Positions 41 to 8,667 of a stretch of 64,000 bases of DNA are shown piece after piece. Made by a program: the position numbers and the translations under genes. The stretch's first letter is position 1. Each line of letters begins with the position of its first letter. Origin of the DNA: an uncultured delta proteobacterium (GTDB taxonomy: Bacteria > Myxococcota > Myxococcia > Myxococcales > Myxococcaceae). The stretch is from positions 3,424,001 to 3,488,000 of the forward strand of contig CAWCKH010000004.1 of the NCBI GenBank assembly GCA_963796055.1, read 5' to 3'. Below the pieces are notes generated by a model. It was not told the DNA's origin, searched no databases, and was given only the letters and a program-made list of their open reading frames with translations.

Positions 41-943
41 ATGAAAGGCTCCACAGAACGAGCTGCTCAGCCGGACAGCATTGTCGAGATTCCGTGTTCG
101 CGTACGTACGAGGAGCCCGAGAGCCAGGAGCAGCTCGCCAGGATCATCCAGAGCTCGATCACGCGACGAGTCGCTCCCTCAGAGCGCACTCACGAGGAGG
201 TTGCTTCGCTGGCGCTGGGCGGCAGTCCGTCGGAAGTGGTCATCATCGAGACGCCCAAGAGCGAGCCGGAGGAGTGGATCAACCTGCTGCGCAAGACCCT
301 TGCGACAGCCGAACCCTCGCCTTCCGCGGTGGCGTTCCGCATCATCGATACCTCCAAGAGCGAGCCGGACGAGTGGATCAACCTGTTTCGCAAGAACCTT
401 GCGATGGCCGAGCCTTCGCCTTCCGCGGTGCCATTCCGCATCATCGAAGCCTCCAAGAGCGAGCCGGAGGAGTGGATCAGCTTGTTTCGCAAGAACCTTG
501 CGATGGCCGAGCCCTCGCCTGTAGAGGCGGCGTTCCGCATCATCGGGCGCGAGCTACCGACGTATCGGCCGACACCGATCCCTCTGTTCGCTGGAGACTC
601 ACGCGAGCGTCAACGCGACTTGTTGATGGAAAGCACCCTCAACTCGCTCCCTCAACGCCAGGGCGTTTCGGCCGAAGCAAGTCGGTCAGCGCTCGCGTTT
701 TGGAAGAGACTTCGCACGTGGATTCCAACCGTCACGCTCCCGCAGACACAGGTGACGCCGGAGGGCGGCATCCACATGGCTTGGCAGCGAGGTGGACGCT
801 TTGCCAGCATCGACGTGAGTGGCAACGCAGCAGTGGACTGGTTCTTCCAAGACCCAGGAACAGGTGAGGCTGCGAGCGGTGACGACCAGGAGAGCCCCCT
901 CGGTTTCATCTCGTACCTTCAGAAGCTCTTTGAGCAGAGATGA
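41..943 (+). CDS. Hypothetical protein with three 33-aa tandem repeats and a C-terminal domain; possible antitoxin-like partner of the next gene
   Basis: 300-aa ORF; repeat SKSEPEEWINLFRKNLAMAEPSPSAVxFRII; stop overlaps the next ATG (ATGA at 940-943). Confidence 0.7.
   Translation: MKGSTERAAQPDSIVEIPCSRTYEEPESQEQLARIIQSSITRRVAPSERTHEEVASLALGGSPSEVVIIETPKSEPEEWINLLRKTLATAEPSPSAVAFRIIDTSKSEPDEWINLFRKNLAMAEPSPSAVPFRIIEASKSEPEEWISLFRKNLAMAEPSPVEAAFRIIGRELPTYRPTPIPLFAGDSRERQRDLLMESTLNSLPQRQGVSAEASRSALAFWKRLRTWIPTVTLPQTQVTPEGGIHMAWQRGGRFASIDVSGNAAVDWFFQDPGTGEAASGDDQESPLGFISYLQKLFEQR
241..545 (+). repeat. In-frame 99-bp tandem repeat, about 3 copies
   Basis: catcatcg recurs at 241, 340, 439 and 538 (exact 99-bp period) with near-identical intervening sequence. 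Confidence 0.95.
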
Positions 944-1899: not shown

Positions 1900-2802
1900 G
1901 TGGACTGGCGAGCAAAGGTCCTAGGTGCAGCGATCCTCGCGGTGTTCGCGGCAGTGGCCGGCTCGGCCTGCTCATCGGCTCTGGCCCAGGACGGTGAGCT
2001 CACGCTTGAGGACGTCAGAGGCCGGGCATCCGCATTGTCGACCTCTTCTTGCCCGACGGGGGCAGTCAGCCGTGCCACCAACTCAACATCATCGGAAACG
2101 ACTGCCACGACACGACGGGTTTCCCTGTGGCCTGCTGCTTCTACACCGCGTCTCCCTCCCCGACTCAGCTTCAGGGACCGGCGTGCACCGAGTACTCAGG
2201 AACCACCGTCATGATTCAGCAGGTCGGAAAGGGATTCTGCTGTGAGCGCTATGCGCCTGGGTACGGACCAACAGACTGGGTCAGATCGGAGGACCCGAAC
2301 TTGGCCACCCCGTGTGCGTTCTGCGGTGGCGAGACGCCCAACGACAATCAATGCTGCACGCGAGACCGAAACGTCGTGCAGAAGTTTCCAATCGTGAACC
2401 TCGACGACTGTCCAGACCGGGTGCAGATAAAGCCACCGGAACAGACGACGCCCGCCTGCGGGCCAGCGGATGCGGGCGTCTTCACGCGCGCCGTCATTCC
2501 GCAGCGTTTCGGCCCTGTTCCGTTTGAGCCGTCTTGCATTGAGCACGACTACTGCTACAGCACGTGTAGGCGGGACAAGGGGTTCTGCGACCGACAGATT
2601 AACGAACTCCTACGGGCTGCCTGCATGGACGCTTTCGCAGCTCAGATTGAGGCGATCGGGAGGGCCGGCGGCGACCCGAGATCGCTGAGCGCCGTACTCA
2701 ATAGCTGCCTCTACGCGGCTGACAGCTTCTTTGGGGCAGTGGTGAGCAGGGACAAGAGCCTACGACAAGGCGCAGAAGGAGTTCTGCAAGTGCTGCGAAT
2801 GA
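1900..2802 (+). pseudogene. Frameshifted secreted Cys-rich protein with a phospholipase A2 (group XII-like) domain
   Basis: Signal peptide in the 1900 frame; shift near 2050 to the frame with CIEHDYCYSTCRRDKGFCD; second shift near 2755 back to a frame reading YDKAQKEFCKCCE-TGA (2800-2802). Confidence 0.7.
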
Positions 2803-3233
2803 CCAGACGAATCCTCTGCCTGCTCCTGCTCGCTGTCGCCTGCAAGGAGGCCCCAATCAGCGGTTCGCCCGACGCTGGCCAATCGAGTCTCGCTGGGAAA
2901 TGGCAGGGCGTTCAGTCGGTCGACCCCAACGGCCAGGGCAGTCTCGCTAGACTAGAGTTACAAGGAGCGCCGGGTGGGCAGGTGCGGGGCGCCTTGGACG
3001 TTTCCTATGGCATGGACGCCAACGACCTCGCCACCATCGGCTTCCTCTCCGGACCTGCCCAGGGCGGCACGTTCATCCGGGGCACATCCTTTCTTCCTGA
3101 TGGCGGTCTGGAGCCTCGTTTGACGATGACGATCACGGTCTCTCAATCCCTCAACCACATCGACTGGGTCGAGCAGCAGCACACCCTCGACGGCGGTCCG
3201 CTACCCATCTACTACCGGATGGACAGACAGTAG
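2799..3233 (+). CDS. Putative lipoprotein (candidate immunity protein)
   Basis: MTRRILCLLLLAVAC lipobox; ATG overlaps the TGA of the PLA2-like gene (ATGA). Confidence 0.7.
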   Translation: MTRRILCLLLLAVACKEAPISGSPDAGQSSLAGKWQGVQSVDPNGQGSLARLELQGAPGGQVRGALDVSYGMDANDLATIGFLSGPAQGGTFIRGTSFLPDGGLEPRLTMTITVSQSLNHIDWVEQQHTLDGGPLPIYYRMDRQ

Positions 3234-3270
3234 TTCTCACCTCCGCCTGGAACGACGAACCACGACGCGC

Positions 3271-3640
3271 GTGGGAAGAAAGAAGAGCCCCCCAATCCGC
3301 TGCGTGGTCCCGGGCTGCGACCACCTCATCCAGCGCCGGCAATACTGCATCCGGCACTATCGCGAGCGGGTCCTGCCGCGGTGCCGGGTAAGGGGGTGCG
3401 GCCGGCTTCGGCTTCTGCGAGCCCCACTACAGGAACGGCGGCAAGCCGATCCCCGTGAGAGCCAAGCGTAGTGCCGCAACTGGCCCCCGTGTCTTCGCCT
3501 GGAGCCGACTTTACGGTGCCCGTGTTCGAGGGAGAGGCCCGGCGGCTGGGGCTGAGGAACACGGGGATGCTGGCCGAGATCGTCGAGGCTTGGGCCCGAG
3601 CGCGTGACCTGCCCCCGAGCTGTCAAAGCGGCTGCGGCGC
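3271..3640 (+). pseudogene. Decayed small Cys/His zinc-ribbon repeat protein
   Basis: CVVPGC...YCIRHY, then a second CRVRGC whose GFCEPHY half is out of frame near 3405. Confidence 0.4.
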
Positions 3641-3831
3641 ACCGCCGCGTCGCGCCGCATCGCCGTCGCCGAGCTGTTGCGCCAGGTGCTGGAGGCGGGG
3701 CTGCCCTGAGCCGCGGGCATCTCGGCGCCATGCCCCGGCCAGTCCCAGCTCGGCTAGTAGCGCAACGTGAACCTTCACATCAGCAGGCCTACGCATCCGG
3801 GGAAGCGCACCGTGCCGCAAGAGATTCGCGC

Positions 3832-3883
3832 AAATGCGCAGACACTACGTTTTAGCTGGTTATGAGCTGATGTTTGCGCATTT
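3832..3883. promoter_or_regulatory. 13-bp inverted repeat in an AT-rich intergenic stretch; candidate operator or island boundary
   Basis: aaatgcgcagaca (3832-3844) and tgtttgcgcattt (3871-3883), one mismatch. Confidence 0.45.
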
Positions 3884-4315
3884 CTTGCACTTCGCGACCG
3901 ACGGCTCGAGCGATTAAGACCAATAAGTATCAATGAAATTGCGGGTCCGGCCTTCGGGGCATGGGAAATGCTGCCAATTTGCGTATATCACCTATGCGCT
4001 GGGCGCAGGGAGGGGTCCCGATGAGGCCTCTAGACCGCGCAGCGGTAGCGGTATCGCTATGCCTGCTCGCTTTGGGCCCTGCGTATGCCGCATCAACGCC
4101 TGGCGTTGCGAGCGCAGACGCTGAGAGCAGCAATCCGCCGACACACTGCGGTTCCTGGGGGTGCCCAATGAGACGACTGACTTTCTAGAGGACATCGCCT
4201 TGAAGAGCTTTGTCCACGCCGACACTCTCGGCGAATGCCTGCGCGGGCGCTTCTCTCTTGAAGAATTCGCTTCGTTCGGGAGCCTTGCGTCCTCCTGAAG
4301 AAGCTCGGAGGCATC

Positions 4316-5652: not shown

Positions 5653-5941
5653 CGAGCCTGGTCCTGTGCATTTGCCAGGCCGAGCCGCGGAGCGAGGGTT
5701 CCGCGAGATGGGGCGACGGGAGCCGGGTCATTCATCTCCTCTGGGGAGAGATTGACCCGGGGGAGAGTGTTACACGATGTGCGTCCAGGGGCGACGGGCT
5801 CGCCCTCGTGCTCGCGGGCTCCCGCCTGGGGCCGCCGCTTCGGTGCGGCGTGCAGTCTGCTGCCGGCAGATCCGCCCGTCCGATCTTGGTCTCGAGGCAG
5901 GGCGAGCGATCGAATCGCGCCGGGGTCTCCGATGGCCGCTG

Positions 5942-6001
5942 GCGCACCAGGGACGAGCGCACCAGGGACGAGTTGACAAGAAATGGGCGGAGGTTTATTG
6001 A
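5942..6001 (+). promoter_or_regulatory. 15-bp direct repeat abutting a TTGACA -35 element; candidate promoter for the structured leader
   Basis: gcgcaccagggacga twice (5942-5971), TTGACA at 5973-5978, imperfect -10 (tattga) 17 bp later. Confidence 0.45.
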
Positions 6002-6019
6002 CCGCCGCCTTTTCGTGAG

Positions 6020-6213
6020 GTCCGTCGTGAGAACGCAATTCTCGATCGATTGCTTGTCCAGGGCGCCGAGCGCCTCCGGGCATGCGTCAGGTCGCGTTCT
6101 CCGCGCGTATCTCCGACTTCCGGGAGAGCCAGTCTCAGACTCGAACGTCTGAGCTGCTGCTCCCGGAGGCCGAGTTCTCGCGAGGGAATCCGGCCTTCGA
6201 ATTTCCACGAGAC
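6020..6213 (+). ncRNA. Candidate structured RNA (multi-hairpin)
   Basis: Pairings gagaacgc 6029-36/gcgttctc 6094-6101; cttccgggag 6117-26/ctcccggagg 6160-69; ctcagac 6134-40/gtctgag 6147-53; ttctc-GCGA-gggaa 6175-88. Confidence 0.4.
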
Positions 6214-6354
6214 ATGGCGGTGCGCCCCAGCGGCGCCGCGGTGACCTCCGGGGAGCACCAGCGTTCCACAGCGCGGGCGTTCTCCTCTCGGGATTTCACA
6301 CGCGGTTGGCCGCGCATCGGGCTCCGCTCGGCGAAGGGAACGGCCGCTGACGGT

Positions 6355-6425
6355 TCTCGCCCCGCTCTGAAAGGAGCACTGGACTTGAAATCCAGCGCCC
6401 GCGGTTCGAATCCGCGGGCACGTGC
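6355..6425 (+). ncRNA. tRNA-like element (pseudo-tRNA, anticodon-position TGA, incomplete acceptor stem)
   Basis: D arm gctc/gagc 6364-77; anticodon arm ctgga-cttgaaa-tccag 6379-95; T arm cgcgg-TTCGAAT-ccgcg 6400-16; only 3 bp of acceptor pairing, no CCA. Confidence 0.75.
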
Positions 6426-6704
6426 ATTGGACACGCACCGAGGCGCCGGCGTGAGCCGGCCCGGAGTCCGGCCGCACCAGGCGACCGGCCCGCGAACGAA
6501 TGCCGTGAACCGGCCATCCCGGGACGCCGCCGCTGCCATCGGGCGGCAGCCATCCCATGGACCGCCGCTTCGCCGCCTCGGCGCGCGCCGGACGTCCCTG
6601 GGCGGAGGGGGACGGAGCACGGCGCCCGTGAGCGTCCGGCGCCTCACTTTTCTTGTCTTCGACACCTGTCGTTGCAGCACCCCGAAGGAAGGAGGTCGTC
6701 AGTC

Positions 6705-7787
6705 ATGCGAATCGATGTCGCCGTCAATCAGCGGGCCCTGGTCCTCGTGGACCAGATCCCGGCGCGCTACCTCGGGCCCGGTCGTCACCGGATCCGGGTG
6801 GCTCCGTGGCGGGCGCTCGAGGTCCGTCTCTACGACACCGAGCGCCTCCTGGCGGAGCTCCGTCCCGAAGAGCTGGCCCTGGTGCCTGAGCGGGAGCTCG
6901 CGCGACTGATCGTGACTCCTGATCAGCGCGCGGTGCTGTCGCGGCGCGGGCGGCCGGTGAAGTGGCTCCAGGCGGGAATGCACCTCGTCTGGACCGTGGA
7001 TCCGACTGTCAGCCTCGAGGTGCTGGACGTGTCGGGTGTCGAGGCCGCGCCGCTCCGCGACGAGGTCAAGGCGCTCGTTCCGGCCGGCGACTACGTCGAG
7101 GCCACCGCGGCCGAGGGGACTGCCGTCCTCCGGTACGTGGATGGCGCGCTCGAGGCCGTGCTCGGCCCCGGGCGTCACGCGGCGTGGACCGTGCGCCGGA
7201 AGGTCCAGCTCTCGGTGATCGACACCCGCGAGAAGCAGCTCGCGGTGAACGGGCAGGAGGTGATGACCCGCGACCGCGTGTCGCTGCGTCTGAACCTCGT
7301 GGCGGCCTGGCGGGTGGCGGACGTCCGCCGCCTCGCCACCGTGGCCCGGGCGCCGGAGGAGGTGCTCTACGTGGCGGTGCAGCTCGCCGCGCGCGAGGCC
7401 GTGTCGACCCGGACCCTGGACGAGCTGCTCGCAGCGCGGGAGCAGCTCGGCCTGCAGCTGGTGCCCAGCGTGCGCGAGCGCGCGCAGAGCGTGGGCCTCG
7501 AGCTGCTCGACCTCGGCGTCAAGGACCTGGTGCTCCCGGGGGAGATGAAGACCCTCCTCAACCGGGTGATCGAGGCCCAGAAGGAGGCCGAGGCCAACGT
7601 CATCCTCCGCCGTGAGGAGACCGCGGCCACCCGGTCGATGGCCCAGACCGCCAAGGTGCTCGGCGAGAACCCGCTGCTCGTCCGCCTCAAGGAGCTCGAG
7701 GCGTACAAGGAGCTCGCCGCCAAGGTGGGCCAGGTGCACGTCGTGCTCGGCGACGGCGCGCTGCCGCAGCTGCAGCTGAAGTCGTGA
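6705..7787 (+). CDS. Slipin family (SPFH/band 7) protein
   Basis: AAGGAGG RBS; GQEVMTRDRVSLRLN, LPGEMKTLLNRVIEAQKEAEANVILRREETAATRSM, NPLLVRLKELE motifs. Confidence 0.92.
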   Translation: MRIDVAVNQRALVLVDQIPARYLGPGRHRIRVAPWRALEVRLYDTERLLAELRPEELALVPERELARLIVTPDQRAVLSRRGRPVKWLQAGMHLVWTVDPTVSLEVLDVSGVEAAPLRDEVKALVPAGDYVEATAAEGTAVLRYVDGALEAVLGPGRHAAWTVRRKVQLSVIDTREKQLAVNGQEVMTRDRVSLRLNLVAAWRVADVRRLATVARAPEEVLYVAVQLAAREAVSTRTLDELLAAREQLGLQLVPSVRERAQSVGLELLDLGVKDLVLPGEMKTLLNRVIEAQKEAEANVILRREETAATRSMAQTAKVLGENPLLVRLKELEAYKELAAKVGQVHVVLGDGALPQLQLKS

Positions 7788-7791
7788 GCGG

Positions 7792-7830
7792 GGGGCCCGC
7801 CCGGAATCCGCCGGGCGGGCCCCGATTTTT
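7792..7830 (+). terminator. Rho-independent terminator after the slipin gene
   Basis: ggggcccgcccgg/ccgggcgggcccc 13-bp stem followed by gattttt. Confidence 0.75.
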
Positions 7831-7837
7831 CACCAGG

Positions 7838-8527
7838 TCAGGCCGCCTGGGCGGCCATGTCCCTGCGCCTGGACGGAAGCGAGCAGAGGAGCAGCAGCCG
7901 GTCGCCGTGCGCCTCCTCGATCTCCAGCCGCCGGAACAGCTCCGCGCTCTCCCCGTGGGACGCATCGAGGATGCGCCGCCGTTCGCCGGCGGAGTGGCGG
8001 ATACCCCTCGCCAGGCGCGAGAGGACGAAGGGGCGCTCCGCGCATCCCGAGGCGCCGAGCCACGCCCGCGCGGCGTCCGCCAGCGGCAGGAGCTCCTCGC
8101 GGAACGAGCCGTCGGGCGCGGGCTGCACGTCCGCCCAGAACGCGCGGGCATCGCGGAGCGCCAGCGGCGTGGCGGTGGTGGTGAAGAGGCAGAGACGATT
8201 GCCCCGCGCCTCCTCCTCGTCCTGCGCCTCGGTGCTGAACCGCGCCAGGACCGCCGCGGCGCTGCGCTCGTCCCGGGCACCGCTCAGCCCGAGGTACCGC
8301 GCTTCCCGGCGCTCGGCACCGACCGGGAGGCGTACCCGCGCGACGAAGAGGAAGGCGCACGGACCCTCCGCATCGGCCGCCAGGTACAGCAGGTCGCAGC
8401 GGAGGAGCTCGTCGGTGAGCACGGAGCACCCCGGCGCGTAGCTCGGGGCGACCAGCCTCGCCATTCCGTCGATCAGGTCGTGGTTCCAGGCACCCTTCTG
8501 GAGTTTCGTCACGGAGATGTCGCTCAT
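7838..8527 (-). CDS. Hypothetical protein (possible GNAT-like fold)
   Basis: C-terminal part of the 7838..9475 ORF from MSDISVTK; globular composition. Confidence 0.7.
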   Translation of the reverse strand: MSDISVTKLQKGAWNHDLIDGMARLVAPSYAPGCSVLTDELLRCDLLYLAADAEGPCAFLFVARVRLPVGAERREARYLGLSGARDERSAAAVLARFSTEAQDEEEARGNRLCLFTTTATPLALRDARAFWADVQPAPDGSFREELLPLADAARAWLGASGCAERPFVLSRLARGIRHSAGERRRILDASHGESAELFRRLEIEEAHGDRLLLLCSLPSRRRDMAAQAA

Positions 8528-8667
8528 GGGATGGCGGTCGACGAGCACGCCGGATGCCAATCTCGAACGCCATGAGATCGAGGGGTTGGCCCTGGCCGGT
8601 GTAGCGCCGGAGGCAACTCGTCGCGGCGGATGAAACACGGAAATCCCGCGCGGGCTCCCCCGGCTGG

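What the first reader, a model, noticed from the sequence alone, without database searches (positions are those of the whole stretch)
6330..7830. tRNA mimic embedded in a long structured leader of a lone slipin gene
Seen: perfect D, anticodon and T arms (TTCGAAT loop) at 6364-6416, only 3 bp of acceptor stem and no CCA. The anticodon-position triplet is TGA (Ser) but the long variable arm of tRNA-Ser is missing. Further hairpins follow (gccggc-GTGA-gccggc GNRA loop at 6445-60; gctgcc/ggcagc near 6532-50) before the slipin RBS, and a terminator follows the gene. Known: slipin genes commonly sit in rtcB RNA-repair loci together with tRNA-like RNAs. Inference: a non-decoding tRNA mimic, such as a decoy or sensor for anticodon nucleases, an RtcB substrate or a cis-regulator, coupled to a membrane SPFH scaffold with no adjacent rtcB. 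The D-AC-T order differs from permuted YrlA Y RNAs, so it may be a distinct RNA class.
Basis: partly seen in the sequence, partly recalled or inferred. Interest (0 to 1): 0.78.

Follow-up and report, generated by a model that had tools for sequence, protein, structure and literature searches.

The report
Large tRNA-cored RNA before slipin gene
The tRNA look-alike is the worn-down core of a conserved folded RNA of about 440 bases that travels with a soluble stomatin-like gene across myxobacteria and appears to be switched on when protein synthesis stalls, so it is a much larger and better-connected form of a predicted but never tested RNA-repair partner.

Summary
The tRNA-like arms are real (Rfam tRNA 31 bits), but they are one module of a ~440-nt RNA (6214-6654): 5' rod, pseudoknot, tRNA module, 205-nt 3' rod, U-tract. 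A covariance model of the 3' rod alone, trained on close kin, finds it just before slipin in distant Myxococcota where sequence-only search mostly fails; 21 of 53 pairs show compensatory change. The anticodon drifts freely (22 triplets in 54 loops; one relative lacks D and anticodon arms) while the T arm persists, which argues against an anticodon decoy. This copy lacks the D-loop GG and a stable acceptor. Upstream lie a promoter, a 41-codon leader ORF and a terminator/antiterminator; that layout occurs only once more in the genome, before a spare tRNA array. In a Myxococcus relative the RNA shares an ECF-type promoter motif with rtcB, Thg1, RNase R and tRNA clusters. The slipin has no membrane helix. 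Best reading: the full-length, stand-alone form of the predicted band-7-associated tRNA, a translation-stress-induced RNA partner of an SPFH scaffold. Binding, processing and induction are inferred, not shown. This scan noted similar RNAs before on other DNA.

The parts
5973..5978 (+). TTGACA, sigma70-like -35 box at the 5' edge of the cassette; no clean -10 box
   Evidence: same column in 9 of 11 aligned leaders; similarity to close relatives starts here; not called by the promoter scan
6017..6152 (+). Shine-Dalgarno GAGGT (6017-6021) and leader ORF 6027-6152, GTG start, 41 codons; ORF position kept, peptide sequence not kept
   Evidence: SD plus start codon downstream of TTGAC in 24 of 26 leaders with a located RNA 5' end (30 given; several near-duplicates)
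6114..6172 (+). predicted antiterminator: 6114-6126 pairs with 6160-6172 (12 of 13 pairs)
   Evidence: folding only
6165..6198 (+). terminator-like hairpin 14 nt after the leader stop codon; tail weak here (TCGAATTTCC), T-rich in L002, L005-L008, L117
   Evidence: present in 13 of 26 leaders; same hairpin type heads the tRNA array of this genome
6214..6328 (+). 5' rod of the large RNA (GGCGG 6216-6220 with CCGCU 6324-6328, interrupted helix)
   Evidence: z -2.9; consensus fold (6 of 30 pairs compensatory); model R1 lands on the matching place in 12 of 23 held-out loci, each hit weak, E 0.14-4.4
6329..6358 (+). predicted H-type pseudoknot: CGGC 6329-6332 with GCCG 6343-6346; GGGAAC 6336-6341 with GUUCUC 6353-6358
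   Evidence: both stems change in pairs across relatives; loose pattern in 41 of 72 segments against 183 of 720 shuffles
6364..6419 (+). degenerate tRNA module: D stem-loop 6364-6377, anticodon arm 6379-6395, T hairpin 6397-6419
6422..6438 (+). small hairpin of variable sequence, absent in L008 and L053
6440..6645 (+). 3' rod: basal stem 6440-6449/6636-6645, GYGAGC/GYGAGC internal loop (tandem G-A pairs, inferred), tip hairpin 6532-6550
   Evidence: 21 of 53 pairs compensatory, 0 of 500 shuffles as high; model R2 held-out hits; single copy in the genome
6648..6654 (+). U-tract right after the rod, likely a 3' end or pause with read-through
   Evidence: 5 or more T in 8 bases in 23 of 33 rows of A6 (one row is an off-target hairpin), 4 T in most others
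6689..7787 (+). RBS 6689-6695 and slipin gene 6705-7787: three SPFH1-like beta repeats (aa 1-174), SPFH2 domain, coiled coil; no membrane helix
7792..7833 (+). intrinsic terminator closing the cassette
   Evidence: a strong hairpin follows the stop codon in most relatives

Best explanation
Promoter, leader-ORF attenuator, ~440-nt RNA and slipin form one cassette of the RNA-repair (Rtc-type) stress response. While translation is healthy a ribosome runs to the end of the leader ORF, covers the antiterminator and lets the hairpin at 6165-6198 stop transcription; when ribosomes stall early, RNA polymerase reads on into the RNA and, past the U-tract, into slipin (inferred from layout and folding). 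The RNA is the full-length form of the predicted band-7-associated tRNA. It does not decode. By analogy with Ro60 and Y RNA, its long rods bind or line an oligomeric SPFH scaffold made by the soluble slipin, and the T arm (the D/T elbow in intact copies) is the handle read by tRNA-recognising enzymes, either to process the transcript or to dock repair enzymes such as RtcB supplied in trans (inferred). Shown by computation: conserved structure, linkage to slipin, free anticodon, kept T arm, shared control elements with tRNA arrays and repair genes. Rough odds by step: conserved large structured RNA 0.9; same family as b7a-tRNA 0.8; induced by translation or RNA stress 0.75; leader works as attenuator here 0.6; RNA and slipin form a particle 0.45.
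For: Structure outlives sequence: HMMs of the flanks from 12 close kin give one clear and one weak hit in 66 held-out loci, but model R2 (3' rod, no tRNA in it) puts its 21 best hits (E <= 0.025) and 26 of 27 at E < 0.1 between tRNA module and slipin start in 64 held-out loci. Covariation on a sequence-only alignment: 21 of 53 pairs, slid controls 4-11. T loop found in 73 of 77 leaders; 22 triplets among 54 seven-base loops, 14 loops of other length, CCA in 5 of 68, L003 without D and anticodon arms. RNA block present in the 4 genomes with slipin and in none of 6 without, among 10 I chose from 3 genera. Classic rtc loci show the same order: sigma54 box, two tRNA-like modules, a 3' rod, slipin, rtcB in Photobacterium; rtcR, sigma54 box, T-arm-only leader, slipin in Citrobacter. 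TTGAC + leader ORF + AGGCCG..CGGCCT hairpin occurs at 2 of 469 TTGAC sites in this genome: here and before a tRNA array; the same leader type heads arrays in L005, L007, L196, L197. In genome G126 the motif TGTCAGR-N15/16-CGTC has 18 sites (3 for the reversed control); 10 of 18 precede the slipin RNA, two tRNA clusters, RbfA+RtcB, AAA_33 kinase+Thg1, a phosphoesterase, YqeY, RNase R, an R2K ATP-grasp and an AlaX-like gene. 9 of 58 loci sit in or beside tRNA arrays. In Anabaena a slipin gene is in the TrcR regulon with rtcB and the trn array and rises under chloramphenicol (PMC10272220, passages).
Against: No transcript ends, no induction data and no binding data for this RNA. The attenuator pattern and the ECF-type motif were read off these same sequences, so their counts are partly circular, and many loci are close kin. 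The hairpin tail is weak in this copy and the scan did not call it a terminator; the hairpin is missing in 13 of 26 leaders. At equilibrium the terminator still wins under an early stall in 8 of 10 slipin leaders, so the switch would have to be kinetic. This copy cannot form a canonical elbow (no G18G19). rtcB lies within the fetched flanks of only 1 of 95 and 4 of 85 loci. The 5' rod is only weakly detected across clades. The genome has no Ro60 and no RtcR.
Confidence: 0.55

Rival explanations
1. The RNA acts only in cis: the 3' rod plus U-tract is a conditional terminator for slipin, and cleavage or protein binding at the tRNA module decides read-through.
For: Always directly 5' of slipin on the same strand; U-tract after the basal stem in most copies; the local GNRA hairpin could sequester the 5' strand of that stem and is pairable in 94% of cells among 12 close kin; one RNA contig spans RNA and gene.
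Against: The local hairpin shows no compensatory change and is not formable in the other clades by eye; the locus already has dedicated control upstream that differs by lineage (attenuator, ECF-type motif, sigma54/RtcR); a 440-nt multi-domain fold is far more than a terminator needs.
Confidence: 0.22
2. Decoy or sensor for anticodon nucleases, or a sacrificial RtcB substrate.
For: Anticodon arm retained in most copies and highly variable, which could be read as diversifying selection; co-regulated with rtcB in G126; the Pelobacter authors suggested substrate or guide.
Against: Loops shrink to 4-6 bases in 13 of 68 copies, U33 is lost in 11 of 54, the whole arm is deleted in L003 and in the enterobacterial form; the slipin gene of the chosen Myxococcus strain is barely expressed in a normal life cycle, a poor state for a standing decoy.
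Confidence: 0.1
3. A decaying tRNA gene left over from a spare tRNA array, with GC-rich flanks that fold by chance.
For: This copy is degenerate; slipin often sits in arrays; GC 75-80% favours folding; whole-leader z only -1.0.
Against: Compensatory changes and held-out model hits in the flanks; fixed distance to slipin; single copy that comes and goes with slipin.
Confidence: 0.05
4. The module is a working tRNA-Ser(UGA).
For: TGA in a canonical seven-base loop; Rfam score above gathering.
Against: No acceptor stem, no variable arm, no U8, no G18G19, no CCA; a regular tRNA-Ser(TGA) exists at C4:140094.
Confidence: 0.01

Closest known systems
[quoted passage not shown]
   Same: tRNA-like RNA directly before a Band-7/SPFH gene; link to RNA repair; said there to be unvalidated and to swap places with YrlA.
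   Different: Here no adjacent rtcB; the tRNA is a degenerate module inside ~440 nt of conserved rods and a pseudoknot; control by a leader-ORF attenuator or an ECF-type promoter instead of RtcR/sigma54. Whether the 2016 paper or its supplement noted the flanks could not be checked.
Pelobacter carbinolicus mutant tRNA Pcar_R0061 before stomatin-like Pcar_2837, rtcA, rtcB (PMC3543383, passage)
   Same: Aberrant tRNA heading a stomatin-like gene; proposed substrate or guide for RNA repair.
   Different: Read there as a single mutant tRNA in an RtcR operon; no larger RNA mentioned in the passage seen.
YrlA Y RNA with Ro60 (bioRxiv 10.1101/312249, passages)
   Same: tRNA-like domain without free CCA, D and T elements kept, long stem available for a ring-shaped partner. 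This is what it most likely works like.
   Different: YrlA is permuted, with a closed acceptor and no anticodon loop; no Ro60 gene in this genome; no Rfam match.
Leader-peptide attenuator PA5471.1 before the RtcB-like ArmZ of Pseudomonas aeruginosa (PMC12057347, passages)
   Same: Leader ORF plus terminator, read-through on ribosome stalling, ahead of an RNA-repair-type gene.
   Different: No sequence relation tested; here the leader is 36-41 codons, its peptide is not conserved, and the first product is a non-coding RNA.
Anabaena TrcR regulon with trn array, rtcB and slipin alr0740 (PMC10272220, passages)
   Same: Slipin, rtcB and a spare tRNA array unlinked but co-induced by translation stress.
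   Different: Repressor control; no RNA partner in the passages seen; that alr0740 is of the same three-repeat subfamily was not tested.
Large ornate RNAs OLE, GOLLD, ROOL, raiA, and the vault particle (recalled, apart from Rfam and fold searches)
   Same: Size, many helices, tRNA neighbourhood, partner gene just downstream; slipin shares the repeats + SPFH2 + coiled-coil order with major vault protein.
   Different: No Rfam match; repeats match SPFH1 domains better than vault repeats, and only weakly.

Membership tests
b7a-tRNA | adjacent Band-7/SPFH gene | tested here: met
   PF01145, E 6.5e-28
b7a-tRNA | strong resemblance to an authentic tRNA | tested here: inconclusive
   31 bits here; 58-67 bits in orthologous positions L020, L022, L027, L053 and 37 in L086
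b7a-tRNA | rtcB in the same neighbourhood | tested here: not met
   nearest RtcB 1.03 Mb away; adjacent in a few relatives
b7a-tRNA | match to the authors' own alignment or model | not testable with these tools
   paper not held
canonical tRNA-Ser | 7-bp acceptor stem, long variable arm, U8, G18G19, CCA site | tested here: not met
YrlA Y RNA | permuted order with closed acceptor and no anticodon loop | tested here: not met
   order is D-anticodon-T
YrlA Y RNA | Ro60/TROVE gene in the genome | tested here: not met
   0 matches, genome 98.5% complete
Rfam large RNAs (GOLLD, ROOL, OLE, raiA and others) | covariance model match | tested here: not met
   no family but tRNA reaches its cut-off over 5800-6750 or in 10 related loci
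RtcR/sigma54 regulon | RtcR gene and -24/-12 box | tested here: not met
   no RtcR in this genome; RtcR present in 5 of 5 family members checked but not next to slipin
leader-peptide attenuator | leader ORF with SD, then terminator with competing antiterminator | tested here: met
   by sequence and folding only, tail weak
leader-peptide attenuator | read-through upon ribosome stalling | not testable with these tools
   needs reporter or term-seq
ECF41-type promoter (TGTCACA-n16-CGTC, PMC3426412) | bipartite motif before the RNA | tested here: inconclusive
   absent in the window's clade; relatives have GTCAG-N16-18-CGT(C/A), similar but not the same -35; sigma factor not identified
membrane stomatin/HflK | N-terminal membrane helix or hairpin | tested here: not met
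   no hydrophobic segment; N-terminus is beta repeats
major vault protein | vault-type repeat fold | tested here: inconclusive
   full model: MVP E 4e-11 to 5e-9, below stomatin, Z 10.4; repeats alone: PHB1/erlin/QmcA Z 3.6-4.1, MVP Z 2.4, no Foldseek hit at E <= 0.001
major vault protein | cage assembly with bound RNA | not testable with these tools
   needs EM and pull-down

The most novel reading that the evidence does not exclude
An undescribed class of large bacterial RNA that, with a soluble three-repeat SPFH protein, builds a vault-like ribonucleoprotein cage for RNA repair or storage, made only when ribosomes stall and wired in myxobacteria to an unreported ECF-type repair regulon and to a leader-ORF switch shared with spare tRNA arrays.
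Probability: 0.2. Interest if true: 0.9.

Novelty: new variant of a known kind. Interest (0 to 1): 0.62.

Why it matters
The b7a-tRNA was predicted in 2016 and, in the literature I could search, not characterised. Showing that it is the core of a ~440-nt RNA gives borders, domains and a minimal essential part (the T arm) to test, and a tractable host (Myxococcus xanthus, gene MXAN_0423). It would add a second RNA-plus-ring-protein system beside Ro60/Y RNA, bear on what an SPFH protein does without a membrane anchor and on the origin of vaults, and it points to two apparently unreported controls of bacterial RNA repair. It also means that many odd 'tRNA genes' called before slipin genes inflate tRNA counts.

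Tried and rejected
Whole-window Rfam and ARAGORN: nothing. Promoter scan: no site. Sequence-only HMMs of the flanks mostly fail across clades; the iterated HMM includes its own targets and was used only to place borders. A6 pair counts are fitted to the model and include one off-target row, so they are not used as evidence. Dimer prediction for slipin gave no verdict. Repeats alone found no clear solved relative. RNA runs laid on L086 are contigs only: X8 and X22 begin at 956 and 977, near the predicted 5' end at about 929, with no cover just upstream; X11 has one contig 718-2640 over RNA and gene; X10 spans everything; no DNA run was laid, so this is at most a weak hint. Genome-wide scans with model R2 in relatives could not be obtained, so absence of the RNA away from slipin rests on this genome and BLAST in 10 genomes. 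Slipin relatives are rare in viral and phage collections (1 locus; none). Literature searches that found no description of the large RNA or of MXAN_0423; the library lacks most subscription papers and the 2016 source paper. PMC8421152 has no mention of SPFH, stomatin or myxobacteria in its main text.

Full report
Observation. The arms described are in the sequence: D stem 6364-6377, anticodon arm 6379-6395 (TGA 6386-6388), T loop 6405-6411. Rfam scores them as tRNA at 31 bits with permissive filters; the whole-window scan and ARAGORN miss them. A regular tRNA-Ser(TGA) lies elsewhere in the genome. The gene is an SPFH protein of 360 aa followed by a terminator. The genome (98.5% complete) has three RtcB genes, 1.0 to 3.2 Mb away, and no Ro60 or RtcR.

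Relatives. The slipin gene was found in 97 of 301 sampled genomes of the phylum, which record titles of close hits name as Myxococcota. In 77 leaders of 650 nt (the window, 53 of 65 loci with room upstream, 23 of 30 loci; duplicates and truncated ones left out) a T loop lay 200-450 nt before the start codon in 73, and D, anticodon and T arms were parsed in 68 (three D arms were visibly mis-set by the script). The 54 seven-base loops carry 22 different triplets; 14 loops have 4, 5, 6 or 8 bases; CCA follows in 5; a full 7-bp acceptor occurs in 9; GG in the D loop in 65. L003, whose slipin is 90% identical, has lost D and anticodon arms and kept the T arm. Enterobacterial slipin loci have a sigma54 box and a ~250-nt leader with a T arm alone. 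The T arm is the constant; the anticodon is free.

A larger RNA. Twelve close kin align over ~440 nt, from 6214 to the U-tract at 6648-6654. The fold is a 5' rod, a pseudoknot, the tRNA module, an optional hairpin and a 3' rod. On a sequence-only alignment of the 3' rod 21 of 53 pairs change on both sides, against 4 to 11 in slid controls and 0 of 500 shuffles (kinship inflates such counts). The held-out test is stronger: HMMs of the flanks find one clear and one weak hit in 66 other loci, whereas the covariance model of the 3' rod, which holds no tRNA sequence, places its 21 best hits between tRNA module and slipin in 64 held-out loci, in 11 of 12 Myxococcus-clade loci at E < 0.04 without filters, and in further metagenome loci. 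The 5' rod model is weak (E 0.14-4.4) but lands on the matching place in 12 of 23 loci. Both pseudoknot stems change in pairs, although the loose pattern also appears in a quarter of shuffles. A classic rtcB-linked locus in Photobacterium also has a rod between its tRNA-like modules and slipin. The RNA is single-copy here and was present in the 4 of 10 chosen genomes that have slipin and in none of the 6 that lack it.

Control. Similarity to close relatives begins at a conserved TTGACA (5973). It is followed by an SD and a 41-codon ORF (6027-6152); the ORF is kept in 24 of 26 leaders but its peptide is not, and L004 has shifted frame without changing its span. Fourteen bases after the stop is a hairpin (6165-6198) whose 5' strand can pair instead with the last third of the ORF. 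With a ribosome modelled at the stop the hairpin forms with probability 1.0, with an early stall 0.0. In 8 of the other 9 slipin leaders the hairpin wins at equilibrium either way, so a switch there must be kinetic; the tail is weak in this copy; the hairpin is absent in 13 of 26 leaders. The same layout occurs at 2 of 469 TTGAC sites in the genome, the other heading a spare tRNA array (pattern taken from these two sites), and before arrays in relatives. Other clades use another control: GTCAG-N16-18-CGT(C/A) lies just 5' of the RNA in 44 of 75 leaders against 12 of 1591 control windows. It resembles, but is not, the ECF41 promoter (PMC3426412, passages). In G126, whose slipin is identical to the M. 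xanthus DK1622 protein P0051, 10 of 18 sites of the strict motif precede RNA-repair or translation genes or tRNA clusters, rtcB among them; 8 do not. So the 'lone' gene is linked to rtcB by regulation, not position. This parallels Anabaena, where slipin, rtcB and the trn array share the TrcR regulon and respond to chloramphenicol (PMC10272220, passages), and PA5471.1 attenuation of an RtcB-like gene (PMC12057347, passages).

Expression. The DK1622 slipin of matching length, MXAN_0423 (assignment inferred from length and label), has values of 0.9-9 in supplementary Table S1B of PMC9548883, against 13-26 for an rtcB gene (rows seen): near silent, as an inducible gene would be. Contigs of four RNA runs cover the RNA in L086 but cannot show ends or levels.

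Protein. The model (pLDDT 87) shows three beta repeats, an SPFH2 domain and a long helix. Stomatin is the best match; major vault protein aligns over 400 columns at lower rank. The repeats alone are nearest to SPFH1 domains, weakly. There is no membrane segment. That SPFH proteins form rings and cages is general knowledge, reflected in the titles of the matches; it was not shown for this protein.

How it most likely works. Shown: conserved fold, linkage, free anticodon, kept T arm, shared control elements. Inferred: stalled ribosomes open the attenuator; the RNA is made, perhaps in excess of slipin mRNA because of the U-tract; the rods engage an SPFH oligomer and the T arm is read by tRNA-processing or repair enzymes, as proposed for Ro60 and YrlA. 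The reported swapping of b7a-tRNA and YrlA between Band-7 and Ro60 neighbourhoods (bioRxiv 10.1101/312249, passages) fits. Main rival: a purely cis-acting leader.

Known and new. The pairing of a tRNA-like RNA with a Band-7 gene is known as a prediction (second-hand; the 2016 paper was not available, and its supplement may bear on the flanks) and from Pelobacter (PMC3543383, passage). The rtcB-adjacency criterion fails here, so this is filed as a variant, not a plain member. Nine literature searches found no account of the large RNA, the attenuator or the regulon; other papers in those lists were seen only as listings. Earlier notes of this scan report similar 200-700-nt RNAs before slipin in other genomes and a leader switch on a myxobacterial tRNA-array remnant; these are unchecked and are not counted as support. 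Verdict: real, new variant of a known kind, interest 0.62.

Noticed in passing
G000:C4:3120156-3121462: Spare tRNA array (Trp, Gln, Glu, Asp, Ala, Arg, Met, Leu) headed by TTGAC, a 56-codon leader ORF and a strong terminator of the same type as the slipin leader.
   Followed up: partly
L005, L006, L007 about 1930-4260: A 15-gene tRNA array with its own leader ORF and hairpin is transcribed divergently from the slipin RNA cassette; in L006 the leader ORF reads through the hairpin.
   Followed up: partly
L191 (G126:C30:225000, minus strand): The ECF-type motif is followed by a ~170-nt folded leader with a T-arm-like hairpin before a metallophosphoesterase gene: possibly a second T-arm RNA in the same regulon.
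   Followed up: partly
L193, L202, L206, L208 (G126): Motif-preceded operons: AAA_33 kinase + Thg1, RbfA-like + RtcB, R2K ATP-grasp, AlaX-like protein; together an apparently unreported myxobacterial RNA-repair regulon.
   Followed up: partly
L107:3215-3530 and L108:3215-3530: Enterobacterial slipin loci: sigma54 box, ~250-nt leader with only a T arm, slipin, nucleotidyltransferase; rtcR divergent in Citrobacter, not annotated there in the E. coli record.
   Followed up: partly
L109:2868-3195: Photobacterium: two tandem tRNA-like modules and a rod before slipin and rtcB.
   Followed up: partly
L003, L018, L112 leaders: The terminator-like hairpin is deleted while the leader ORF remains; these may be deregulated copies.
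   Followed up: no
L053, L119, L123-L128 leaders: A different 25-codon leader ORF with a better-kept peptide and no such hairpin precedes the same RNA.
   Followed up: no
window 41-943 (+): 300-aa ORF with three copies of a ~37-residue repeat and no Pfam or NCBIfam match, just downstream of a tRNA-Val (C4:3423443); the next ORF 940-1431 also has no family. Possibly an inserted island.
   Followed up: no
window 2049-3233 (+): Cysteine-rich ORF with a weak group XII phospholipase A2-like match (E 6e-5, below cut-off); its second half looks like a separate lipoprotein.
   Followed up: no
window 7841-8530 (-): 230-aa ORF convergent on slipin, no family match, kept downstream in several close relatives.
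   Followed up: no
G000:C4:16390-31621: Three tRNA-His(GTG) calls within 15 kb, perhaps an integration site with duplicated ends.
   Followed up: no
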